This document shows, in pieces, positions 1 to 32,361 of a stretch of DNA of 32,361 bases (position 1 is the first letter of the stretch; each line of letters starts with the position of its first letter). The notes beneath the pieces were generated by a model, which saw only the letters and a program-made list of their open reading frames with translations, did no database searches and was not told the DNA's origin. Source of the stretch: a virus (taxonomy: Duplodnaviria; Heunggongvirae; Uroviricota; Caudoviricetes); IMG/VR virus record IMGVR_UViG_2695420763_000014, one strand, 5' to 3'. Made by a program: the position numbers and the translations under genes.

Positions 1-237
1 ATGATGTCTATAAATGAAGTTGTTAAACAGGACTGGCACCCCGCGCATGTTGTCGCGGCGGTGCATGTAAAAGGTTTTACTTTACGCTCTCTGTCCATTG
101 AAGCCGGTTTAAACCAGGATTCTTTAAAGAATGCCCTGTACCGCAAATGCCCAAAATATGAGCGCATTATTGCTGATGCTATTGGTGTTGCGCCGGAGGA
201 GATCTGGCCCAGTCGTTACGCTCGTAAGGTGGCATAA
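1..237 (+). CDS. ner: Ner-like DNA-binding protein (early transcription regulator)
   Basis: 78 aa ORF directly upstream of the transposase; C-terminal ...EEIWPSRYA resembles the Mu Ner tail (…EVIWPSRYQ) as I recall it; overall divergent from Mu Ner. Confidence 0.7.
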   Translation: MMSINEVVKQDWHPAHVVAAVHVKGFTLRSLSIEAGLNQDSLKNALYRKCPKYERIIADAIGVAPEEIWPSRYARKVA

Positions 238-239
238 AA

Positions 240-2333
240 ATGTTTGTGTCAGTTAATGAGCTTGTAGGGCTACCAGGTATGCCGGGAACTGCGCAAGGGG
301 TGCGGTATTCCATAAGGAAACTGGCCTCATCTGAGCATTTCAGGCGCAAACGTGCGGGTTCAAAAACCATTGAATACAGCATCGACTGCCTCCCTCCGGT
401 TACACAGCGGGCGTTACGTGAGCGCCATGTAGCTCAACTGATGGCAACCGCCCCGCAGGAGATAACTACCCAGCCTCCTGTAAAGCGTGAACGCAAACAA
501 AATGTTGTACAGCCTGTTGAGGCATATCGCGGTTCGCCACAATTGGTAGAAGAACGTCTGAATGCTCTTACGGAAAATCAACGTAAAGTTGCAGAAGCGC
601 GCATTGCTCTTGTCTGTGAAGTTCTACGAATTAGCCAGGAGCCGGGATTCAGTTGTGCCAGCGCTATACGTTTTATTGTGTCGCGGTTAGCGCAGGGTAA
701 CCTGGAAGAACGCCTGGAATCTTTGGTCATTACTGCTAATGCCCGTAAAGGGAAAGAGCGAACTCTGAGCGCAATTACGCTCAAACGTTGGATAGCTGCG
801 TTTAACAAAGCACAGAATGCCGCAGAACGACTGCTGTTACTGGCACCAGGAAAGCGCGACGAAATAAAACCGGAAGAAATTAGCTGGCTACCTGAATTTC
901 TGGCGCAGTATCGTCAGGCTAACGGCAGGCCTATGTCAGAAGCCTACGAGGATTTTGTTGCTGATTGGCAGCGTCGCCATGCGGACGAACCATACATGCT
1001 GGAGGTGATGCCTTCCTATGATGTTGTCCGGTATGCCATGAAAAAACTGCCGGAAGTGGTGAAACAAAAAGGGCGCGTTACCGGCAGTGAATACCGTCAG
1101 CTTGAAGGATTCACCCGCCGCGACTGGACAGCTATGCCGGTGAATTATGTCTGGATTGGTGACGGTCACGGTATGAAGCTGAAATGTGCACATCCTGTTC
1201 ACGGGCGTCCATTTTCACCGGAAGTTACGTTTGTGATCGACGGTGGAACCCGGTTTGTGGTTGGCTGGAGTCTTGATCTTGCGGAGAACGTGTTCGCTGT
1301 TGCCGGGGCAATACAACACGGCATTCGCAATCACGGAAAACCATTCCTGTATTACTCGGATAATGGTTCCGGTGAAACAGCAGATATGCTGGATAAAGAG
1401 ATCGTCGGGATTCTGCCCCGCCTGGGGATTAACCACCCTACCGGTATTGCGGGAAATCCGCAGGGACGCGGCATTATTGAGCGCCTGAACCGGACGTTAC
1501 CGATGCGTATAGCAAGGAGGTATCGCACCTATTTCGGCAAGGGGGCTGACCGGGAGTCGTTGCGAGTACTTAATCGTGATCTGCGTTCAGCGTTTAATGC
1601 CCTGCAACAGGACAAGCCACTGAGCGCCCGTCAGAAAGCCGCAATGCGCGAGCTGCCGTCCTGGTCAGAACTGATTGAGGCTATCCGTGAGGGGGTGGAG
1701 TGGTACAACAACCGCCCACATTCTGAATTGCCGATGAAACCAAATGGAAAACATTACAGCCCGGCAGAGTTCAGAAAAAAACGCTTAGCGGAAGAAGACA
1801 CTGAAATTGAGTGGCTGAGTGATATTGAGCTGCGTGACATGTTCCGCCCGATGGTGGAGCGTCCGGTAAGACGCTGCGAAATCCAGTGGCTGAACAATAT
1901 TTACTACGCGCCAGAGCTGCGTGATGAACATGGCCGCAAGGTACTTATCAGCTATGACATTCATGATGCCGAGCGAATTACGGTACGCCGTAAGGACGGT
2001 AGCTTTATCTGTGAGGCGATATGGAACGGCAATAAACGCGCAGCCTTTCCTGTTACGGCTGAATATCACAAACAACAGCAGCGTATTAAAGGAATGCGCA
2101 AGCGTGCTGAGGAAAAAATACGTGATGCTGAGGATGAAGGTATTCAGGTTATTGAACAAAAAACGACAGAACCCTGGCTGGATAATGTTTATCGCCCTGT
2201 TGGTAATGTGGTGACCGTTCAGCCGTTGAGGTGTGAGGAAGTGCATGATGATGAATACGAAACTGAGCGTGATGAATATCTGAATCATTCGCTGGATATT
2301 CTGGAACAGAACAGACGTAAAAAAGCCATTTAA
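240..2333 (+). CDS. A: MuA-family DDE transposase, divergent from Mu A except the C-terminal 28 aa
   Basis: 697 aa; SD aaggtgg 8 nt upstream. N-terminus LPGMPGTAQGVRY resembles Mu A domain I-alpha. Candidate DDE triad D308 (WIGDG), D374 (YYSDNG), E414 (IERLN), with D-D spacing 66 vs 67 in Mu A (D269/D336/E392). Ends ...DDEYETERDEYLNHSLDILEQNRRKKAI, the Mu A MuB/ClpX-interaction tail. Confidence 0.93.
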   Translation: MFVSVNELVGLPGMPGTAQGVRYSIRKLASSEHFRRKRAGSKTIEYSIDCLPPVTQRALRERHVAQLMATAPQEITTQPPVKRERKQNVVQPVEAYRGSPQLVEERLNALTENQRKVAEARIALVCEVLRISQEPGFSCASAIRFIVSRLAQGNLEERLESLVITANARKGKERTLSAITLKRWIAAFNKAQNAAERLLLLAPGKRDEIKPEEISWLPEFLAQYRQANGRPMSEAYEDFVADWQRRHADEPYMLEVMPSYDVVRYAMKKLPEVVKQKGRVTGSEYRQLEGFTRRDWTAMPVNYVWIGDGHGMKLKCAHPVHGRPFSPEVTFVIDGGTRFVVGWSLDLAENVFAVAGAIQHGIRNHGKPFLYYSDNGSGETADMLDKEIVGILPRLGINHPTGIAGNPQGRGIIERLNRTLPMRIARRYRTYFGKGADRESLRVLNRDLRSAFNALQQDKPLSARQKAAMRELPSWSELIEAIREGVEWYNNRPHSELPMKPNGKHYSPAEFRKKRLAEEDTEIEWLSDIELRDMFRPMVERPVRRCEIQWLNNIYYAPELRDEHGRKVLISYDIHDAERITVRRKDGSFICEAIWNGNKRAAFPVTAEYHKQQQRIKGMRKRAEEKIRDAEDEGIQVIEQKTTEPWLDNVYRPVGNVVTVQPLRCEEVHDDEYETERDEYLNHSLDILEQNRRKKAI

Positions 2334-2371: not shown

Positions 2372-3310
2372 ATGAATATTTCCGATATTCGCGCAGGACT
2401 GCGCACGCTTGTAGAAAATGAAGAAACCACCTTTAAACAAATTGCTCTTGAGAGCGGACTTTCTACCGGAACTATCAGTAGTTTTATCAATGATAAGTAC
2501 AACGGGGATAACGAGCGTGTTTCACAAATGCTGCAACGCTGGCTGGAAAAATATCATGCAGTTGCAGAACTACCTGAACCGCCCCGCTTTGTGGAAACGC
2601 AGACGGTAAAACAAATCTGGACAAGTATGCGTTTTGCCAGCCTGACTGAAAGTATTGCTGTTGTATGTGGCAATCCTGGTGTGGGCAAAACCGAAGCGGC
2701 CCGTGAATATCGCCGCACCAATAACAATGTCTGGATGATCACCATTACGCCATCCTGTGCCAGCGTTCTGGAATGTCTTACTGAACTGGCGTTTGAGCTG
2801 GGAATGAATGACGCACCACGCCGTAAAGGGCCACTCTCCCGTGCCCTGCGACGTCGCCTTGAAGGTACACAGGGGCTGGTTATCATCGACGAAGCTGATC
2901 ATCTTGGTGCCGAAGTTCTGGAAGAACTCCGCCTGTTACAGGAATCAACCCGCACTGGCCTTGTGCTGATGGGAAATCACCGGGTTTATTCAAATATGAC
3001 GGGGGGTAACAGAACGGTTGAATTTGCCCGTCTGTTTTCCCGTATTGCAAAGCGCACTGCAATTAATAAAACCAAAAAAGCCGATGTAAAAGCTATTGCG
3101 GATGCCTGGCAGATTAACGGCGAAAATGAACTGGAGTTATTACAGCAGATTGCGCAGAAACCAGGTGCGCTTCGCATTCTGAATCATTCACTTCGCCTTG
3201 CAGCCATGACGGCTCACGGTAAAGGTGAGCGTGTTAACGAAGATTATCTGCGTCAGGCTTTCCGTGAATTAGACCTGGACGTTGATATTTCAACGCTGCT
3301 GCGTAATTAA
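2372..3310 (+). CDS. B: MuB ATP-dependent target DNA activator
   Basis: 312 aa, same length as Mu B; Walker A GNPGVGKT with the lysine at residue 106 as in Mu B; Walker B VIIDEAD; immediately downstream of the transposase. Confidence 0.93.
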   Translation: MNISDIRAGLRTLVENEETTFKQIALESGLSTGTISSFINDKYNGDNERVSQMLQRWLEKYHAVAELPEPPRFVETQTVKQIWTSMRFASLTESIAVVCGNPGVGKTEAAREYRRTNNNVWMITITPSCASVLECLTELAFELGMNDAPRRKGPLSRALRRRLEGTQGLVIIDEADHLGAEVLEELRLLQESTRTGLVLMGNHRVYSNMTGGNRTVEFARLFSRIAKRTAINKTKKADVKAIADAWQINGENELELLQQIAQKPGALRILNHSLRLAAMTAHGKGERVNEDYLRQAFRELDLDVDISTLLRN

Positions 3311-3325
3311 GAAGGAGAAGAAATT

Positions 3326-3553
3326 ATGATGGCCAGAAATATAAAAATGGCAACGGATGCGCAGAACTGGTTACAGGCGCGCGGGAGTCATGTAAATGAA
3401 TCATATCTCGGCGTGGCGCGTCCGATTCTTGAAATCACTTACCCACCGGTGGAACTGGTAAAAAACGCGGTCAGGATTATGGAGCATAAGTCCGGGGTGG
3501 CCCGTTCTGTATGGACGGCCCGTCTTAATGGTTGTCAGATAATCTGGAGATAG
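3326..3553 (+). CDS. small early protein, unknown function (kil/cim region position)
   Basis: 75 aa ORF with strong SD gaaggagaag upstream; first gene after B. Confidence 0.55.
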
Positions 3554-3560
3554 TATTTAA

Positions 3561-3773
3561 ATGATGGTGATAAATATTCACGATAATCTGGGAATCAGTA
3601 AGTTAATCAACCTTGATAATGTCAGTGTAATGGAAACGACTGTTGAGGGCGGTATTGCTTTTGAATTTATTGATGGTCACCGGCTGGTCGTTCATGTCGG
3701 CAACCATCATCACGCAGAAGATGTGTTTTGGGAACTTAACAAAATCACAAATGCAACACCCGTTAATCAATAA
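3561..3773 (+). CDS. small early protein, unknown function
   Basis: 70 aa ORF, SD ggaga upstream, tightly packed with neighbours. Confidence 0.5.
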   Translation: MMVINIHDNLGISKLINLDNVSVMETTVEGGIAFEFIDGHRLVVHVGNHHHAEDVFWELNKITNATPVNQ

Positions 3774-3780
3774 GCAGGTA

Positions 3781-4056
3781 ATGAAAATGGCAAAAGTAAT
3801 CTTTGAATTTAACAATACAAGAAATATTGAGTTTCAGGATAATGGAGGTTTTGCCGTAAATATGAATGTGCGACTGGAAGAATCCTCACCTGAGGACCAG
3901 ACCGGGCCACATGATGTAATGGCAGGCATCATCAAGAGCATGGCTCCTGAAATCATTAAAAAAGCGACCGAGGAGTTGTTGAAATCAGCCAGGGAGCTTG
4001 GGCTGGAAGCCGAGGGGGAATTATTCAGCTATAACCCGAATGCAGCCAGACATTAA
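3781..4056 (+). CDS. small early protein, unknown function
   Basis: Start chosen at ATG 3781 (MKMAKVIF...), just after the stop of the previous ORF; the ORF track's upstream extension from 3643 overlaps the previous gene and is probably not translated. Confidence 0.5.
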   Translation: MKMAKVIFEFNNTRNIEFQDNGGFAVNMNVRLEESSPEDQTGPHDVMAGIIKSMAPEIIKKATEELLKSARELGLEAEGELFSYNPNAARH

Positions 4057-4076
4057 TTCACAAAGGAACGCTGACA

Positions 4077-4496
4077 ATGAACGTCAAAATCCGAAATGAA
4101 ATTCAGGCATTAATCCGAATTCAGGAACGCAATAACAACGGTGGTGAATTACGCGAGTTTATTTGCGCCCGAAAAGTTGATGATTGTGGTGAAAAGACGT
4201 ACCTGATTGCTTTCGACCATTACAGCATCTGTGCGCGTTATTGCGGCGAAAGCATATCCCGCGCCATTGCATTTGGCGGTGCGTTCAACGTGGATTTATG
4301 GGAGTACGTCATGGACCGGGAATACATCTGCGCATCAGACCCTGAAGCCCGTGAAATGTGGCAGCGTATCTGGCGCGATTACCGGTTAATGGCAAAAGGC
4401 TGGGCGCGCTGCTGTTATTCCTCGCTTGCCCTGAAAGCGGTTCAGTTATCGCTGCGGCATATTCCGGCATCACTGCGCGAGCCTCTGCTGTACTGA
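4077..4496 (+). CDS. early protein, unknown function, Cys-rich
   Basis: 139 aa ORF, SD aaagga upstream; several Cys residues (CARKVDDCGEK, CARYCGES). Confidence 0.55.
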   Translation: MNVKIRNEIQALIRIQERNNNGGELREFICARKVDDCGEKTYLIAFDHYSICARYCGESISRAIAFGGAFNVDLWEYVMDREYICASDPEAREMWQRIWRDYRLMAKGWARCCYSSLALKAVQLSLRHIPASLREPLLY

Positions 4497-4497
4497 C

Positions 4498-4785
4498 ATG
4501 AAGTGTAATCGTAAGCGCTGGTCACGCGAAGACCGGGAATTTATCGAAGCCAACGTCGGGAAAATGACCATTGAAGAAATGGCGGAAAAACTGAAAGTCG
4601 CCACAACCGCCCTCCGGGCACATGCCAGAAGGCACGGAATATCATTGTGTGTATACCGAATCAGTGAACACGACAAATATTTATGTCGTGAACTTTATAA
4701 AGAAGGACTGGATATTCATGTCATTGCCCGAAAGATGGAATTAAGCAATCGAGCTGTATCCAGCATTGTATACAGCGGATATTAA
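4498..4785 (+). CDS. small early protein with two helix-turn-helix-like segments (putative DNA-binding)
   Basis: 95 aa; start 1 nt after the previous stop; segments WSREDREFIEANVGKMTIEEMAEKL and KYLCRELYKEGLDIHVIARKMELSNRAV look like HTH motifs by eye. Confidence 0.5.
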   Translation: MKCNRKRWSREDREFIEANVGKMTIEEMAEKLKVATTALRAHARRHGISLCVYRISEHDKYLCRELYKEGLDIHVIARKMELSNRAVSSIVYSGY

Positions 4786-4804
4786 TTAACAGGAGCTTTA
4801 ATTT

Positions 4805-5329
4805 ATGGCTAAACCAGCAAAACGTATCAAAAGTGCCGCAGCGGCTTATGTGCCACAAAACCGCGATGCGGTGATTACCGATATTAAACGCATCGGGGAT
4901 TTACAGCGCGAAGCATCACGTCTGGAAACGGAAATGAATGATGCCATCGCGGAAATTACGGAGAAATTTGCAGCCCGGATTGCACCGATTAAAACCGATA
5001 TTGAAACCCTTTCAAAAGGCGTTCAGGGATGGTGTGAAGCGAACCGCGACGAACTGACAAACGGCGGCAAAGTGAAGACGGCGAATCTTGTCACCGGAGA
5101 TGTATCGTGGCGGGTACGTCCACCATCAGTAAGTATTCGTGGTATGGATGCAGTGATGGAAACGCTGGAGCGTCTTGGCCTGCAACGCTTTATTCGCACG
5201 AAGCAGGAAATCAACAAGGAAGCGATTTTACTGGAACCGAAAGCGGTCGCAGGTGTTGCCGGAATTACAGTTAAATCAGGCATTGAGGATTTTTCTATTA
5301 TTCCATTTGAACAGGAAGCCGGTATTTAA
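4805..5329 (+). CDS. gam: Gam host-nuclease inhibitor (Ku-like DNA end-binding protein)
   Basis: 174 aa, same length as Mu Gam; the sequence MAKPAKRIKSAAAAYVPQNRDAVITDIKRIGDLQREASRLE... matches my recollection of Mu Gam; SD aggag upstream. Confidence 0.88.
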   Translation: MAKPAKRIKSAAAAYVPQNRDAVITDIKRIGDLQREASRLETEMNDAIAEITEKFAARIAPIKTDIETLSKGVQGWCEANRDELTNGGKVKTANLVTGDVSWRVRPPSVSIRGMDAVMETLERLGLQRFIRTKQEINKEAILLEPKAVAGVAGITVKSGIEDFSIIPFEQEAGI

Positions 5330-5427
5330 TACCACCATTAATATTTAATTAATTCACATTCTTTTAATTATGGCGCGATACGTCAGGGGATTGCTCGCGC
5401 CTGAAACAGATTACTGAGGAATAAAAC

Positions 5428-5958
5428 ATGGTTGATGCAAAAATTCTGAATGGTGTCAGCACATTATTACGGGCTTACGGACGCCTGACCTGCGGAGTTC
5501 TGGCTGAAAAAATGAATATGCTGCCCTCGTCAATGGTGTATTTCCTGCGTGATGCGGTTGATGCCGGAGTGCTCACCGAATGCAACGGATTTTATGACGT
5601 TCCGCGCCCGCGTCCGACGCCGCCTGTAAGACGAAACGCAACTGAGCAGCCTGCTGTTGATGATGCCGCATGGTGTTCCTTCCGCCGCTCATTGCCCTGG
5701 CTGGAAGGCAATGCCATTCCGGCACTGGCAAAAGAATTTGCAACAGGCGTACTGACCTGCGAGTCGGTTTACATCGTTGCGGAAGTGGATGACGAAATGT
5801 GCGAACAGGGAATGCCCCGTTTTGTGATGGCTTATATCGATATCCGGCTGGGGCGTTTTATTTGCAGTTCAAGCGCCTGGAATATCACCGACCATGTACT
5901 GCGTTATCTCATTCTTGATTGTTCTCCGGTTCCCGCAACGATGCAGGAGGTGGCGTGA
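5428..5958 (+). CDS. early protein, unknown function
   Basis: 176 aa ORF with SD gagga upstream. Confidence 0.55.
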   Translation: MVDAKILNGVSTLLRAYGRLTCGVLAEKMNMLPSSMVYFLRDAVDAGVLTECNGFYDVPRPRPTPPVRRNATEQPAVDDAAWCSFRRSLPWLEGNAIPALAKEFATGVLTCESVYIVAEVDDEMCEQGMPRFVMAYIDIRLGRFICSSSAWNITDHVLRYLILDCSPVPATMQEVA

Positions 5959-6488
5959 TGTTTTTTAAAACGTCAAATCCCGCAGCACTGCTGGCATGGG
6001 ACCAGTTTATGGCGGACTGCCTGAAACTACGCGAAGAAGCCTGCCATCTTGATAAGGTTCTGGGTTGTGGTTGCCGGTCAGTATTCAGCACAGGTATTGG
6101 TGGGCGTCATTTTCATGGCGTGAATTTTCCGGGGAATGAGCGACCTTTCTCGCCGGAGCTGTGGACCGTACAACGGCCCGCATCAGGTAACAGTTGCAGG
6201 CCAAGAACATCGCGCATTCCTGCACATCTGCGGGAGCAGTCAAAAGAGCTGGCGAAAATATGGCAGGAGAATATTCCGGTCACTTATGCCCGTACTGACG
6301 CTCTCTTACCCGCACTGGGACTGGATTTCAGCGCAACAATATTCGGGCCACTCCAGTGGTTCCGTGTTGGTGATGTGATTTACGTCATGACGGGGATGAC
6401 ACCCGCGCAAGGCCGCATGACTGAAATCCTTTCTGACGAATTTATCCGGGCGCAAAAACAGGCGGAGGTAACTAATGGAAAACAGTGA
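5958..6488 (+). CDS. early protein, unknown function
   Basis: Start placed at ATG 5958 (MFFKTSNPAAL...), overlapping the previous stop by 1 nt, with SD aggagg at 5944-5949; the ORF-track start at 5919 would overlap the previous gene by 40 nt. Confidence 0.55.
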   Translation: MFFKTSNPAALLAWDQFMADCLKLREEACHLDKVLGCGCRSVFSTGIGGRHFHGVNFPGNERPFSPELWTVQRPASGNSCRPRTSRIPAHLREQSKELAKIWQENIPVTYARTDALLPALGLDFSATIFGPLQWFRVGDVIYVMTGMTPAQGRMTEILSDEFIRAQKQAEVTNGKQ

Positions 6489-6657
6489 AACATCGTATTC
6501 GTGGCTGGGGAAATTTACCACGGTGAAACAGGAATGCCCGACCTGCGGTAATGAATCCCCTGAATATCTGAAAGAGTGCCCTCATTGTGGCGGGCAGAAA
6601 TGCAACCACTGCGATATGGGCGATGACACGGCGTGCATGAATTGTGAAGGTGAGTGA
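6475..6657 (+). CDS. small Cys-rich zinc-ribbon-like protein
   Basis: 60 aa with four CxxC pairs (CPTC, CPHC, CNHC, CMNC); SD ggaggt upstream. Confidence 0.5.
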   Translation: MENSETSYSWLGKFTTVKQECPTCGNESPEYLKECPHCGGQKCNHCDMGDDTACMNCEGE

Positions 6658-6658
6658 T

Positions 6659-6967
6659 ATGAATAATGGTGTATTTTCAAAATCAGAAGAGCTTGCCGCC
6701 CTGCTGATTGCCGGTGGTTTGCCGAAAAAAGAAGTGCATGACTTTGTGAATTTTGTATATGAGCCGTCTCATGAAAAAGCTATTGATGAGGTCATGGCGT
6801 ACCGGTTTGGCATTATTGCTGAGTCACTGAGTCCTCACTGGATTATTGAAAATCTCCGCGCTATTGCTGATGGCAACGATAAATCAGCAGCCGTTGCTGC
6901 ACTGGATGTGTTACGGCAAATGAGTCTGAAATTTTATCCTGAATTTATTCTGAGGGCCGCAAAATGA
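6659..6967 (+). CDS. small early protein, unknown function
   Basis: Start placed at ATG 6659 (MNNGVF...), right after the previous stop; an in-frame GTG at 6644 is the alternative. Confidence 0.5.
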   Translation: MNNGVFSKSEELAALLIAGGLPKKEVHDFVNFVYEPSHEKAIDEVMAYRFGIIAESLSPHWIIENLRAIADGNDKSAAVAALDVLRQMSLKFYPEFILRAAK

Positions 6968-7266
6968 ACAATGAAGATAAATTTACACCCCTTAATATTG
7001 ATAACGTCATGGCTGAAAAAGGGATGCTGGAGCGTGTTCGCGCTATCGTTGAATATGGTATTAAGCATGGACTCACCGCCAGAGAAGTTCGTGACATTAT
7101 CAACCGCGAAATGAATCGTCTGGAAACAGTAGTGGCACTGCAAAATGAAACAGCCCGCGAGGAGTACATCCGCCGCAGGCTGGGGTTATCAGACCAGGAT
7201 ATTGTTACTGACGCTCATGTGTTTGAGGCTTTTGAGATCCGTCAGCATCTGGGTCTAACGAACTGA
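6964..7266 (+). CDS. small early protein, unknown function
   Basis: 100 aa ORF with ATGA stop-start overlap; its 3' end is overlapped by the antisense ORF 7205-7471. Confidence 0.45.
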   Translation: MNNEDKFTPLNIDNVMAEKGMLERVRAIVEYGIKHGLTAREVRDIINREMNRLETVVALQNETAREEYIRRRLGLSDQDIVTDAHVFEAFEIRQHLGLTN

Positions 7267-7471
7267 TAATGTCTTCCATGATCTTTGACAGTTGCAGTTT
7301 TTCGCGGCGGCTTGTTCTCATTGCAGGCGCATCTTTTAAAATCTCTGCTGAAGAGCTGAAAATGGCTTTGCCCTCTTCTGCGGTGATGATCGCCTTCTTC
7401 ACCAGAAGGCGCACCAGCGCTGATGCAATCGCATAGCCTGCAACATCATAAGGTTGTACATTATTTTCCAT
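7205..7471 (-). CDS. hypothetical protein on the opposite strand, in the gap before gemA
   Basis: 88 aa ORF, ATG at 7471, SD-like gagagga 5 nt upstream on the minus strand; lies in an otherwise non-coding 275-bp + strand gap; its 3' end overlaps the previous + strand ORF by 62 nt. Confidence 0.35.
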   Translation of the reverse strand: MENNVQPYDVAGYAIASALVRLLVKKAIITAEEGKAIFSSSAEILKDAPAMRTSRREKLQLSKIMEDIISSLDPDADGSQKPQTHERQ

Positions 7472-7541: not shown

Positions 7542-8093
7542 ATGAGTCGCACATCCCTGATTAAATTAATTCATGTCGCCCGTCGGGAGCTACAACTCGA
7601 CGACGACACTTACCGCGCTTTTCTGATGCAGAAAACGGGCAAAATCAGTTGCCGCGAGCTGACGGTCACGCAACTGGAACAGGTGCTCGATGCCATGAAA
7701 GAACGCGGCTTTAAGAAGCTGAATAAATACCCCCGTCGCCGCTTTAAGGGGCATGTCACGCCCCGCGAGAAGGTGTATAAAATCTGGCAGCAGATGGCAG
7801 AAGACGGTTTTATTGCCGATGGCGGTGATGTGGCGCTGGATAAATATGTTCAGCGCCTGACCGCGAAACGCAACGGCGGACAGGGCGTTTCCACACTGGC
7901 GTGGTGTCATGGCGACACGCTGCTGACAGTCCTCGAAACACTCAAGCAGTGGCACATCCGCTGTATTCGTGAAGCCTTTTCCCGTCACGGGCTTCCATTG
8001 CCGGTCAGTCCGTCCGGTCGTGAACTGCGCGGCTATGATGCCATGACGGCGGCTTATGCCCATGCCAGAAAGACACGGAGGATGGCACAATGA
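7542..8093 (+). CDS. gemA: GemA-like protein (Mu gp16 family)
   Basis: Start at ATG 7542 with SD ggagg 7 nt upstream; 183 aa; directly upstream of and overlapping mor (ATGA), as in Mu. Confidence 0.6.
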   Translation: MSRTSLIKLIHVARRELQLDDDTYRAFLMQKTGKISCRELTVTQLEQVLDAMKERGFKKLNKYPRRRFKGHVTPREKVYKIWQQMAEDGFIADGGDVALDKYVQRLTAKRNGGQGVSTLAWCHGDTLLTVLETLKQWHIRCIREAFSRHGLPLPVSPSGRELRGYDAMTAAYAHARKTRRMAQ

Positions 8094-8479
8094 CGGAAGA
8101 TTTATTTGGTGATTTGCAGGATGACACCATCCTGGCACATCTTGACAATCCCGCAGAGGATACGTCACGCTTTCCGGCACTGCTGGCGGAGCTGAACGAT
8201 TTACTACGCGGGGAATTGTCCCGGCTGGGTGTTGATCCTGCCCATTCACTGGAGATTGTTGTGGCTATCTGTAAGCATCTGGGCGGCGGTCAGGTCTACA
8301 TTCCACGCGGTCAGGTTCTGGACTCGCTGATTCGGGATTTGCGTATCTGGAATGATTTTAACGGTCGCAACGTCAGCGAACTGACCACCCGTTATGGTGT
8401 CACTTTCAATACGGTTTACAAGGCCATTCGCCGGATGCGACGGCTGAAATACCGCCAGTACCAGCCCTCACTTCTGTAA
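8090..8479 (+). CDS. mor: Mor, middle operon regulator (Mor/C family transcription activator)
   Basis: 129 aa, same length as Mu Mor; paralogous to the downstream C protein (shared ...GG.QVYIP.G / GGRQFYIPCG and ...NGRN motifs); followed by an intrinsic terminator. Confidence 0.85.
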   Translation: MTEDLFGDLQDDTILAHLDNPAEDTSRFPALLAELNDLLRGELSRLGVDPAHSLEIVVAICKHLGGGQVYIPRGQVLDSLIRDLRIWNDFNGRNVSELTTRYGVTFNTVYKAIRRMRRLKYRQYQPSLL

Positions 8480-30767: not shown

Positions 30768-32233
30768 TGTTTTATATTGATAACGACAGCGGCGTAACCG
30801 TCATGCCGCCCGTATCCGCCCAGCGTAGTGCTATCGTTCGCTGGTTTTCAGAAGGTAACGGGAATAATGTTATCACATGGCCCGGCATGGACTGGTTTAA
30901 TATTGTGCAGGCGGAGTTATTAAACACGCTGGAAGAAGCCGGTATTCAACCGGATAAAACAAAATTAAACCAGCTTGCACTGTCCATTAAAGCCATTATG
31001 AGCAATAACGCGCTGCTGATAAAAAATAACCTCAGCGAAATTAAAACTGCCGGGGCATCAGCACAGCGTACAGCACGTGAAAATCTGGATATCTATGATG
31101 CCAGCCTGAACAAAAAAGGACTCGTTCAGCTAACCAGTGCCACTGACAGCCCCAGTGAAACGCTGGCAGCCACCGCAAAAGCGGTGAAAATTGCGATGGA
31201 TAATGCTAATGCCCGTCTGGCAAAAGACCGGAACGGAGCAGATATTCCCAATAAGCCGCTGTTTATCCAAAACCTCGGTTTACAGGAAACGGTAAATCAG
31301 GCTTCTGGCGCATTACAGAAAAACCAGAACGGTGCAGATATTCCGAATAAAGATAAATTCGTACAAAACACAGGGGCCTGTCGTGCATTTAGCGGTCAGA
31401 CTGATATCGATGGTTCACAAGGTGAATGGTCGACAGTTGCATTTATCTCGTGGCTGGAGAATAACGGAGCTTTCCGACATCCATACTGGATGTGTAAAGG
31501 GTCATGGTCCTATGCCAGAAACAGGGTTATTACGGATACCGGTTGTGGAAATATCTGCCTTGCCGGAGCCGTGATTGAGGTTATGGGAACCCGCGGCGCA
31601 ATGACCATACGCGTTACCACGCCGGGTACGTCCAGTGGTGGCGGAATTACTAACGCTCAATTCACTTATATTAATCATGGTGATGCTTATGCTCCTGGCT
31701 GGCGACGAGACTACAACACGAAAAACCAGCAGCCTGCATTTGCTTTAGGGCAAACAGGAAGCACTGTCGGAAATGATAAAGCTGTTGGCTGGAACTGGAA
31801 TAGCGGGGTCTATGAGGCAAATATTGGTGGCGCATCGACATTAATCCTCCATTTCAATATGAATGTGGGGAGCTGCCCTGCTGTACAGTTCCGCGTGAAT
31901 TACAGAAATGGCGGTATCTTTTATCGTTCAGCGCGTGATGATTATGGCTTTGAAGCTGACTGGTCAGAGTTTTACACCACAACCCGCAAACCTTCTGCGG
32001 GAGACGTTGGTGCATATACGCGGGCAGAATGTAACTCAATGTTTATTACAGGTATTCGCCTTGGCGGTCTGTTATCTGTTCAGACATGGAATGGTCCCGG
32101 CTGGTCTGACAGGTCAGGTTATGTCGTTACGGGTTCAGTTAACGAAAACCGTGATGAATTAATTGATATAACTCAGGCAAGGCCAATTCAGTATTGCATT
32201 AATGGAACGTGGTATAACGCGGGGAGTATTTAA
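30767..32233 (+). CDS. S: tail fibre protein S (constant part Sc fused to a variable part Sv from the G segment)
   Basis: 488 aa; SD ggag upstream; a gix recombination site lies inside the gene at 31263-31288, so codons before it are the constant part and codons after it are invertible-segment encoded. Confidence 0.8.
31231..31350 (+). repeat. 24-bp direct repeat (2 mismatches) flanking the gix site inside S
   Basis: gaacggagcagatattcccaataa (31231-31254) and gaacggtgcagatattccgaataa (31327-31350); both encode the peptide NGADIPNK. Confidence 0.75.
31263..31288. other. gix site (Gin invertase crossover site, left boundary of the invertible G segment)
   Basis: TTATCCAAAACCTCGGTTTACAGGAA: 26-bp imperfect palindrome that matches the Mu gix / Hin hix-family site as I recall it (compare hixL TTCTTGAAAACCAAGGTTTTTGATAA). 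Confidence 0.8.
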
Positions 32234-32235
32234 TT

Positions 32236-32361
32236 ATGATGCACTTAAAAAATATTACTGCTGGCAATCCTAAAACAAAAGAGCAATACCAGCTAACGAA
32301 ACAATTTAACATCAAATGGCTTTATACAGAGGATGGGAAACGCATTTGCCCGTCAGCGTGA
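32236..32361 (+). CDS. U: tail fibre assembly protein U, N-terminal 41 codons ending at an in-frame TGA at the window edge
   Basis: ATG 3 nt after the S stop; translated by hand as [41 protein letters not shown] then TGA at 32359-32361. The Mu U position is a protein I recall as about 175 aa, so this looks truncated, but the downstream sequence is not visible. Confidence 0.45.

What the first reader, a model, noticed from the sequence alone, without database searches (positions are those of the whole stretch)
3326..7266. Early semi-essential region: eleven tightly packed small ORFs, mostly of unknown function
Between B and gemA lie 11 ORFs of 60-176 aa with SD sequences and stop-start overlaps; only Gam (4805-5329) is recognisable. 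They include a double HTH-like protein (4498-4785), a Cys-rich 139-aa protein (4077-4496) and a 60-aa double-CxxC zinc-ribbon protein (6475-6657). In Mu-type phages this region encodes host-takeover functions (kil, gam, sot, arm, cim and similar), many still uncharacterised, so it is the most likely place for anti-defence or host-modulating genes in this window. I cannot assign any of them to a specific system from sequence alone.
Basis: partly seen in the sequence, partly recalled or inferred. Interest (0 to 1): 0.45.

Follow-up and report, generated by a model that had tools for sequence, protein, structure and literature searches.

The report
Phage Mu early accessory gene block
This stretch is the well-known "semi-essential" early gene block of a phage Mu-type prophage, almost identical to genes already catalogued in Mu, D108 and SfMu; the only new item is a conserved RNA hairpin just after gam that no database describes.

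Summary
[quoted passage not shown] Eight are 93-100% identical to Mu Mup05, 08, 09, 10, 11, 12, 13 and 14. One is the D108 gp7 allele (98%). One is the SfMu gp14 / vB_YpM_5 gene that Mu lacks (99-100%). One, at 3561-3773, is a non-homologous replacement of Mu gp6, seen so far only in E. coli and Salmonella prophages (phrog_3375).

Kil and Gam are both recognisable, not Gam alone. The other nine fall in PHROG families without a known role (gp9's family carries a transcription-regulator label). Nine of the eleven show purifying selection; for the gp6-slot gene it is weak and for gp13 the counts are too small to call.

The gp8, gp12 and gp13 families are confined to Enterobacteriaceae Mu-like prophages. 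The gp11 family is also small: 41 clusters in 1.84 billion representatives. A confident gp12 model matches no solved fold. The "Cys-rich" character of gp8 is not conserved. gp13 has four invariant CxxC pairs, not two. There is no evidence for or against anti-defence roles beyond Gam.

One extra feature lies in the gam-gp11 spacer: a conserved hairpin at 5372-5401, supported by covariation and absent from Rfam. It marks the point where downstream gene content switches between phages.

The parts
3326..3553 (+). kil (Mup05 orthologue), 75 aa
   Evidence: It is 100% identical to Mu, D108 and vB_YpM_5 Kil and matches phrog_2743 at E 3e-43. pN/pS is 0-0.14. AF083977 notes it is 'also known as cim'. 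Mu kil expression gives spherical cells (PMC3961180).
3561..3773 (+). gp6-slot gene, 70 aa: a non-homologous replacement of Mu gp6
   Evidence: It has no BLASTP hit to gp6 of Mu, D108, SfMu or vB_YpM_5. It belongs to phrog_3375, whereas Mu gp6 belongs to phrog_3786. tblastn against 50,697 phage records found nothing. It is present in E. coli prophages at 79-96% aa identity, and at 38-40% as the first ORF after B in more distant Mu-like prophages. pN/pS is 0.5-0.8.
3787..4056 (+). gp7, D108 allele, 89 aa
   Evidence: It is 97.8% identical to D108 gp7, 40% to the vB_YpM_5 homologue, and has no BLASTP hit to Mu gp7. It belongs to phrog_2230. pN/pS is 0.09-0.26.
4077..4496 (+). gp8 (Mup08), 139 aa
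   Evidence: It is 96% identical to Mu and 100% to D108, in phrog_3690. The family has only 24 clusters, all in Enterobacteriaceae. Only C52 and C56 are conserved among the cysteines. The AF2 model has pLDDT 46 and is unusable.
4498..4785 (+). gp9 (Mup09), 95 aa, probable DNA-binding protein with two HTH-like halves
   Evidence: It is 99% identical to Mu. It matches phrog_323 'transcriptional regulator, D5-like' at E 1.5e-28. HTH, sigma-70 region 4, Lrs14 and Cbp1 hits cover residues 5-49 and 50-90 but are all below threshold. The internal repeat is not significant by sequence.
4805..5329 (+). gam (Mup10), 174 aa, dsDNA-end-binding host-nuclease inhibitor
   Evidence: It is 100% identical to Mu Gam and matches PF07352 at E 4e-42.
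5354..5425 (+). Conserved intercistronic element: AU-rich UUUUAAUUAU, then a 30-nt hairpin (5372-5401, GGCGCGAUACGUCAGGGGAUUGCUCGCGCC), then UGAA, ending 26 nt before the gp11 ATG
   Evidence: It is conserved even in prophages whose Gam is only 54% identical. Pattern scans found it in 85 and then further IMG/VR contigs. The covariance model scores 84.8 bits in the window, which has a single copy. Covariation: 87% of cells pair against <=47% for slid controls, with UA/CG and AU/GC swaps and GC/GU changes. Folding energy is -14.7 to -17.7 kcal/mol. Rfam has no match and no U-tract follows the stem.
5428..5958 (+). gp11 (Mup11), 176 aa: HTH-like N-terminus plus Gp11_C domain
   Evidence: It is 93% identical to Mu and matches PF25754 Gp11_C at E 3e-39. 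Only 41 representative clusters exist among 1.84 billion proteins. Gp11_C also occurs behind ArsR/MarR-like HTH or Ead/Ea22-like N-termini. It is always followed by gp12 with an ATGA overlap.
5958..6488 (+). gp12 (Mup12), 176 aa, PF26885 Phage_Mu_Gp12
6475..6657 (+). gp13 (Mup13), 60 aa, four-CxxC zinc module
   Evidence: It is 95-98% identical to Mu, D108 and SfMu. All eight Cys are invariant. The family has 14 clusters. The DnaJ_CXXCXGXG hit is E 0.0015, below the cut-off. The best profile hit in the PDB is YacG at E 0.03, which is not significant. It is fused in frame to an unrelated 175-aa N-terminal domain in E. coli JCKP02 and in phrog_6418.
6659..6967 (+). Extra gene absent from Mu and D108 (SfMu gp14 / vB_YpM_5 _00021 type), 102 aa
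   Evidence: It lies on the 292-bp insertion relative to Mu at 6669-6960. It is 99-100% identical to SfMu and vB_YpM_5, in phrog_1988. pN/pS is 0.24 against SE11.
6964..7266 (+). gp14 (Mup14), 100 aa
   Evidence: It is 98% identical to Mu and 37% to D108 gp14, in phrog_6075. pN/pS is 0.14-0.26.

Best explanation
[quoted passage not shown] It is the promoter-distal part of the long early operon that starts at ner-A-B.

Shown here:
- There are eleven real, co-oriented, tightly packed genes that are orthologues or known allelic alternatives of Mu, D108 and SfMu early genes.
- Two have established roles. Kil is a host-killing and cell-shape factor, also equated with cim. Gam is a Ku-like protein that binds dsDNA ends and protects them from host exonucleases.
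- gp9 and the N-terminus of gp11 look like HTH DNA binders. gp13 is a small protein with two probable Zn(Cys)4 sites.
- gp11 and gp12 are an invariably adjacent, start/stop-overlapping pair that persists in distant Mu-like prophages.
- gp6, gp7, the 6659 gene and gp14 occupy slots where different phages carry different or no genes.
- A conserved RNA hairpin after gam marks the point at which downstream content switches.

Inferred, not shown:
- The genes are translated from the Pe early transcript.
- They act as dispensable host-takeover and accessory factors that tune replication, host physiology and possibly immunity.
- The region evolves by cassette exchange at short conserved junctions.

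None of the nine uncharacterised proteins can be assigned a biochemical activity from the evidence here.
For: - **Collinearity and identity.** The window aligns with Mu 3229-31991, with three local differences. Per-protein identities are, and presence or absence across 11 relatives is.
- **Family assignments.** Pfam, NCBIfam and PHROG results are.
- **Purifying selection.**
- **Synteny in distant relatives.** Salmonella and E. coli Mu-like prophages keep Kil, Gam (or DUF3164 in its slot), Gp11_C, Gp12, GemA and Mor around variable small ORFs.
- **Replaced cassettes.** See SE11, PEC422 and JCKP02.
- **Literature.** The SEE region is described in PMC4553209, PMC3820752 and PMC8705779. The Mu kil phenotype is in PMC3961180.
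- **Hairpin.**
Against: No expression data were available, so operon membership and translation are inferred from arrangement and from Mu literature. The gp6-slot ORF has weak constraint (pN/pS 0.5-0.8), and PGAP leaves it unannotated in SE11. Functions of nine of the eleven proteins remain unassigned. The structural route failed for gp8 and gave no known fold for gp12.
Confidence: 0.93

Rival explanations
1. The block is an anti-defence island: several of the small proteins inhibit host immune systems, as early accessory genes do in other phages.
For: Gam already blocks a host nuclease (annotation). The slots for gp6, gp7, the 6659 gene, gp14 and the whole gp11-gp14 segment are swapped between close relatives, which is typical of arms-race loci. 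The gp8, gp11, gp12 and gp13 families are narrow and lineage-restricted.
Against: No protein here matches any characterised inhibitor. PDB sequence searches found nothing. The gp12 fold matches nothing solved. The library papers read describe these genes only as uncharacterised. Core members (gp8, gp9, gp11, gp12) are under ordinary purifying selection.
Confidence: 0.2
2. The hairpin after gam is an RNA-level signal in the early transcript. One option is a processing or stability element: RNase E cuts in the AU-rich tract and leaves a 5' hairpin that protects the distal mRNA. Another is a binding site for a protein that controls translation or read-through of the distal SEE genes.
For: Covariation includes GC/GU changes, which pair only on the + (mRNA) strand. 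The position is constant at 15-26 nt upstream of the next SD and ATG, whatever that gene is. Some phages carry two or three copies, each in front of a cistron. The folds are stable. The element is not a conserved ORF, because the reading frame differs between length variants.
Against: No transcript-end data exist. The loop-proximal sequence CGUCAGGGGA is more conserved than a mere stabiliser would need. No partner protein is identified. The hairpin also folds on the - strand.
Confidence: 0.45
3. The hairpin is mainly a recombination linker. It would be a short conserved patch that lets Mu-like phages exchange downstream cassettes, analogous to the PeSL promoter/stem-loop motifs of T4-type phages, with or without a regulatory role.
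For: Sequence identity between Mu, SfMu, SE11 and JCKP02 runs through gam and the element and breaks immediately after CGCCUGAA. The downstream gene is gp11, DUF5420, a 180-aa ORF, an 84-aa ORF or another gene, while the upstream gene is Gam or DUF3164 in about 90% of cases. Copies flank single ORFs in L033 and L062 and recur in L092. The PeSL precedent is in PMC2839356 and PMC4122927.
Against: Neutral linkers would not show compensatory stem changes. No sigma-70 promoter is detectable in or beside the element, unlike PeSLs. The window has only one copy.
Confidence: 0.3
4. Some of the eleven ORFs, especially 3561-3773, are not genes.
For: pN/pS is 0.5-0.8 for 3561-3773. PGAP does not call it in E. 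coli SE11. It has no Pfam or NCBIfam family.
Against: The ORF is intact in all relatives examined and matches phrog_3375 at E 5e-33. It has 38-40% homologues in the same position after B in distant prophages. A GGAG lies 9 nt upstream of its ATG.
Confidence: 0.07

Closest known systems
Semi-essential early region of Escherichia phage Mu (Mup05-Mup14; NC_000929 4315-7957)
   Same: Gene order, strand, spacing and overlaps match. Eight proteins are 93-100% identical, including Kil and Gam. The same gam-gp11 spacer carries the hairpin.
   Different: The gp6 slot holds an unrelated gene. gp7 is the D108 allele. A 292-bp insertion adds one gene between gp13 and gp14. An 11-bp deletion removes the annotated gp9 RBS.
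Phages D108, SfMu and Yersinia phage vB_YpM_5, and the E. coli RM8082 prophage
   Same: D108 supplies the gp7 allele (98%). SfMu and vB_YpM_5 supply the extra 102-aa gene (99-100%). RM8082 carries the same gp6-slot gene (96%) and is the closest overall, at 98.1% over 12 kb.
   Different: No single sequenced relative has this exact combination. RM8082 and D108 lack the 102-aa gene. SfMu carries an additional DUF5420 gene, and its gp12 is apparently disrupted.
PeSL (promoter-early stem-loop) mobile regulatory cassettes of T4-type phages (PMC2839356, PMC4122927)
   Same: Both are short conserved stem-loop motifs between small early ORFs in a hyperplastic region. Both lie at the breakpoints of gene replacement, and both are repeated in some genomes.
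   Different: No promoter consensus accompanies the Mu-type hairpin. The AU-rich tract lies 5' of the stem. The loop-proximal sequence is strongly conserved. The window has only one copy.
Lambda-type nut sites (boxA plus boxB hairpin)
   Same: Both have a U/A-rich single-stranded motif (UUUUAA) followed by a small hairpin inside a long early operon.
   Different: The 5' motif matches boxA only loosely, by my own comparison from memory of the consensus. The loop is AGGG rather than a GNRA-like pentaloop. No N-like protein is known in Mu. This is a lead only.

Membership tests
[quoted passage not shown]
   B is at 2372-3310, gemA at 7542-8093 and mor at 8090-8479. All eleven ORFs are on the + strand.
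Mu-type semi-essential early (SEE) region | Contains kil and gam | tested here: met
   Kil matches phrog_2743 at E 3e-43 and is 100% identical to Mu. Gam matches PF07352 at E 4e-42 and is 100% identical to Mu.
Mu-type semi-essential early (SEE) region | Transcribed from Pe as part of the early transcript, and dispensable for plaque formation | not testable with these tools
   This rests on the literature only (PMC3820752; PMC4553209). Indirect support for dispensability: gp12 is apparently disrupted in the viable phage SfMu, and gp11-gp14 are absent from the SE11 prophage.
Gam (PF07352, Ku-like dsDNA end binder) | Full-length match above the Pfam gathering score | tested here: met
   144.1 bits against a cut-off of 28.3, covering residues 21-166.
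DnaJ-type zinc finger (PF00684) for gp13 | Score above the gathering cut-off; four CxxCxGxG repeats | tested here: not met
   19.2 bits against a cut-off of 32.7. Four CxxC pairs are present and invariant, but only CPTCG and CPHCG(G) resemble CxxCxG. It probably works like a two-zinc module but is not a family member.
HTH DNA-binding proteins (gp9) | A significant match to an HTH family model | tested here: inconclusive
   All Pfam and NCBIfam hits are below the curated cut-offs (best E 5e-5 to a sigma-70 family). The PHROG label 'transcriptional regulator, D5-like' scores E 1.5e-28.
Known anti-phage defence proteins (PADLOC) | Match to a defence-system model | tested here: not met
   There are no significant hits for ten proteins. 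The only hit is mad1 at E 0.003 on the HTH of gp9.
Characterised anti-defence proteins | Homology or fold match to a known inhibitor, or a functional assay | not testable with these tools
   No anti-defence library was available. PDB sequence searches were negative. gp12 has no PDB fold match.
Intrinsic (Rho-independent) terminator, for the hairpin | GC-rich stem followed by a U-tract | tested here: not met
   The stem is present, but UGAAACAG follows it. The terminator scan found nothing at 5372-5410 on either strand.
Rfam RNA families, for the hairpin | Match to any of 4227 covariance models | tested here: not met
   No match at E <= 1 overlaps 5330-5427.
PeSL-type mobile regulatory cassette, for the hairpin | Stem-loop coupled to an early promoter | tested here: not met
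   The stem-loop is supported by covariation. No sigma-70-like promoter was found in or next to it.
PeSL-type mobile regulatory cassette, for the hairpin | Sits at the boundaries of replaced or inserted ORFs and is repeated | tested here: met
   Homology breaks right after the element. Downstream genes vary. L033 has three copies and L062 and L092 have two. The window has one copy.

The most novel reading that the evidence does not exclude
The conserved UUUUAAUUAU-hairpin-UGAA element in the gam-gp11 spacer (5354-5425) may be an undescribed cis-acting RNA signal of enterobacterial Mu-type early operons. It would control processing, stability, translation or read-through of the distal SEE genes, and would also serve as the junction at which downstream gene cassettes are exchanged, as a Mu counterpart of T4 PeSLs. 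A more speculative extension is that one of the small nucleic-acid-binding-looking SEE proteins (gp9, gp11 N-terminus, gp13) is its ligand.
Probability: 0.35. Interest if true: 0.5.

Novelty: already known. Interest (0 to 1): 0.22.

Why it matters
For the ORF block itself there is little to gain. It is the classic Mu SEE region in a new mosaic combination, and it adds no new gene family.

It does restate an old open problem: most Mu early accessory genes still have no function more than 35 years after they were sequenced. Three results narrow where to look:
- gp11-gp12 is a conserved, tightly linked pair.
- gp13 is a portable zinc module.
- The gp6, gp7, post-gp13 and gp14 slots are swappable.

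The hairpin after gam is the one item that could be new biology. It is a structured and widely conserved intercistronic signal in a model phage, and it can be tested directly with stem mutants and transcript-end mapping.

Tried and rejected
- **gp8 structure.** The family is too shallow (>=71% identity) and the model reached only pLDDT 46, so no fold search was run.
- **PDB sequence searches.** Nine proteins or profiles were searched and nothing was significant. The YacG hit for gp13 (E 0.03) is treated as generic zinc-ribbon similarity.
- **gp13 as a fusion clue.** The homologue search found no informative fusions. The one fusion found later (JCKP02, 231 aa) has an N-terminal domain unrelated to gp12.
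- **gp11 versus DUF5420 as paralogues.** Rejected at BLASTP E 0.034.
- **gp9 internal repeat.** Not significant: 382 of 2000 shuffles scored at least as high.
- **Hairpin as a short ORF starting at the conserved ATG.** Rejected. Length variants shift the frame, some variants read ATG GCG TAA, and a few lose the ATG.
- **Hairpin as a promoter or terminator.** Neither is supported.
- **Genome contigs pattern scan.** The pattern was too loose. Most of the 120 rows were chance or coding-sequence matches, and only three were real: Citrobacter braakii and two in Ca. Erwinia dacicola.
- **Literature.** One search on Mup locus tags returned only mouse urinary proteins. None of the searches turned up a paper on Mu gp6-gp14 functions or on the hairpin.

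Full report
**What the window is.** Megablast of the finding and of the first 25 kb shows a Muvirus genome. It is 96-98% identical at nucleotide level to Mu, D108, SfMu and Yersinia phage vB_YpM_5. The closest complete E. coli genome is the RM8082 prophage, at 98.1% over 12 kb. A blastn map against the whole Mu genome shows collinearity from Mu 3229 to 31991, with only three local differences in or near the finding:
- Window 1-2243 carries a different ner/A allele.
- 3553-4061 is replaced.
- 6669-6960 is inserted.

**Observation.** The eleven ORFs exist as described, with corrected starts for two of them. They are co-oriented, separated by -14 to +20 nt apart from a 98-nt spacer after gam, and mostly preceded by SD-like sequences. 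Nei-Gojobori counts against five phage or prophage relatives, and three further E. coli prophages, give pN/pS of 0.0-0.3 for kil, gp7, gp8, gp9, gam, gp11, gp12, the 6659 gene and gp14. For gp13 the counts are small and the ratio ranges 0.04-0.54. The gp6-slot ORF gives 0.5-0.8 but stays intact everywhere.

**Identity of each gene.**

| Gene | Closest relatives and identity |
|---|---|
| Kil | 100% to Mu |
| gp8 | 96% to Mu, 100% to D108 |
| gp9 | 99% to Mu |
| Gam | 100% to Mu |
| gp11 | 93% to Mu |
| gp12 | 96% to Mu |
| gp13 | 95% to Mu |
| gp14 | 98% to Mu |
| 3787-4056 | 98% to D108 gp7; no BLASTP hit to Mu gp7 |
| 6659-6967 | absent from Mu and D108; 99-100% to SfMu gp14 and vB_YpM_5 _00021 |
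| 3561-3773 | no hit to gp6 of any of these phages |

- The 3561-3773 ORF is phrog_3375, whereas Mu gp6 is phrog_3786, a CPxC...CPWC protein. It is a non-homologous replacement.
- It is missing from 50,697 phage records by tblastn but present in E. coli prophages.
- At 38-40% identity it is also the first ORF after B in more distant Salmonella and E. coli Mu-like prophages.
- Every protein falls in an existing PHROG. Kil and Gam have known roles and gp9 carries a regulator label. The rest are 'unknown function'.

- *gp9.* It has sub-threshold HTH-type hits over both halves (RWP-RK, HTH_Tnp_1, sigma-70 region 4, Lrs14, Cbp1) and a strong match to phrog_323 'transcriptional regulator, D5-like'. 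The two halves are not significantly similar to each other. 'Double HTH-like' is plausible but unproven.
- *gp8.* This allele has seven cysteines, but only C52 and C56 are conserved across the family. There is no conserved metal-cluster signature. The family is tiny, and its AlphaFold model is unusable at pLDDT 46.
- *gp13.* It has four CxxC pairs with all eight cysteines invariant, which suggests two Zn(Cys)4 sites. The DnaJ zinc-finger hit is below the cut-off, and the best PDB profile hit, YacG, is not significant at E 0.03.

**gp11 and gp12.**
- gp11 carries Pfam Gp11_C (E 3e-39).
- An exhaustive HMMER search of 1.84 billion representatives found only 41 related clusters.
- In some of those, Gp11_C follows ArsR/MarR-like HTH domains or Ead/Ea22-like N-termini. 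That fits a DNA-binding N-terminus in gp11.
- gp12 is PF26885. It has 69 clusters, and every source-named one is Salmonella or E. coli.
- In distant Mu-like prophages gp11 and gp12 are always adjacent with an ATGA overlap. They probably act together.
- gp12 appears disrupted in the viable phage SfMu. The whole gp11-gp14 segment is replaced by other small ORFs in the SE11 and PEC422 prophages. Both observations fit the 'semi-essential' label.
- In JCKP02 the gp12 slot holds a 231-aa protein whose last 56 residues are the gp13 zinc module, fused in frame to an unrelated domain.

[quoted passage not shown] The updated Mu record equates kil with cim. Mu kil expression produces spherical cells, which points to inhibited elongation (PMC3961180). 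The RefSeq and PHROG label 'septation inhibition' is therefore probably borrowed from lambda Kil. I found no paper assigning functions to gp6-gp14. PADLOC gave nothing.

**An unlisted feature inside the coordinates.** The 98-nt gam-gp11 spacer is conserved even in prophages whose Gam is only 54% identical. Its core is UUUUAAUUAU, a 30-nt hairpin at 5372-5401, then UGAA, ending 26 nt before the gp11 start codon.
- *Distribution.* Exact-pattern scans found it in 85 IMG/VR contigs, plus more with variant flanks. It also occurs in Citrobacter braakii and Ca. Erwinia dacicola genomes.
- *Structure.* A covariance model finds one copy in the window at 84.8 bits, and 69 hits in 68 sources. 87% of cells pair, against <=47% when partners are slid. 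One pair is UA in 36 and CG in 24 sequences with none unpaired. Another is AU 26 / GC 15. A third alternates GC/GU, which favours the + strand RNA. The model-fitted alignment leans towards the structure, but the independent MAFFT alignment gives the same picture.
- *What it is not.* Rfam has no match. No U-tract follows the stem, no sigma-70 promoter is detectable, and it is not a conserved ORF.
- *Context.* Gam, or DUF3164 in its slot, lies upstream in about 90% of cases, and the downstream gene varies. Similarity between Mu, SfMu, SE11 and JCKP02 ends immediately after the element. L033 carries three copies and L062 and L092 carry two; in L033 and L062 each copy lies just upstream of a cistron.
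- *Reading.* I take it to be an intercistronic RNA signal that also acts as a cassette junction. It works somewhat like T4 PeSLs (PMC2839356, PMC4122927) but lacks their promoter. Its actual function is unknown.

**Verdict.** The finding is a correct recognition of a known, already annotated region in a new mosaic combination. Novelty is 'already known' and interest is low. The hairpin is a modestly interesting, testable side observation.

Noticed in passing
window 5354-5425 (hairpin 5372-5401): A conserved AU-tract, hairpin and UGAA element lies in the gam-gp11 spacer. It is supported by covariation, absent from Rfam, present in about 100 Mu-like (pro)phage contigs, and sits at the point where downstream gene content switches. 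Some relatives carry 2-3 copies.
   Followed up: yes
window 4496-4498: An 11-bp deletion (ATGGTGACTGA, between ACTGA direct repeats) is present relative to Mu, vB_YpM_5, RM8082, SfMu and SE11. It removes the annotated gp9 ribosome-binding site and leaves TGAcATG, so gp9 would depend on translational coupling to gp8.
   Followed up: partly
window 7205-7471 (- strand) versus 7269-7436 (+ strand): The annotations conflict. RefSeq Mu calls Mup15 on the minus strand (88 aa, 100% identical here). The updated AF083977 record instead calls a 55-aa plus-strand gene, Mu_54. Substitution counts are too few to decide.
   Followed up: partly
window 31263-32340: The invertible G segment is in the opposite orientation to the Mu reference: it aligns to Mu 35037-33960 in reverse at about 90% identity.
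   Followed up: no
window 1-2243: ner and most of the transposase gene A (697 aa here against 663 aa in Mu) are a non-Mu allele shared with vB_YpM_5, RM8082 and JCKP02. Similarity to Mu, D108 and SfMu starts only at 2243.
   Followed up: partly
L012:7179-7874 (E. coli JCKP02 prophage); L010:6096-7194 (E. coli SE11): In JCKP02 the gp13 zinc module is fused in frame to an unrelated 175-aa domain in place of gp12 (this corresponds to phrog_6418). In SE11 and PEC422 the whole gp11-gp12 segment is replaced by three other small ORFs, gp13 and the 102-aa gene are retained, and a reverse-strand DUF2513 gene sits in place of gp14.
   Followed up: partly
window 3326-3553 (kil): The RefSeq and PHROG product name 'Kil protein for bacterial septation inhibition' looks carried over from lambda Kil. 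Mu kil is unrelated in sequence and gives spherical cells (PMC3961180). AF083977 also equates it with cim.
   Followed up: yes
L003:4694-5207 (SfMu): The gp12 orthologue of SfMu is unannotated and aligns with two gap positions (tblastn 97% identity over 89%). gp12 is therefore probably a pseudogene in this viable phage.
   Followed up: partly
proteins P0114, P0123, P0125 (relatives of gp11): The Gp11_C domain also occurs behind ArsR/MarR-type HTH domains and behind Ead/Ea22-like N-termini (weak, sub-threshold matches). This links it weakly to early-region proteins of other temperate phages.
   Followed up: partly
L007:4162-4800 (Salmonella Mu-like prophage): A DUF3164 protein occupies the gam slot, and the downstream hairpin element is retained. 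This suggests a functional alternative to Gam.
   Followed up: no
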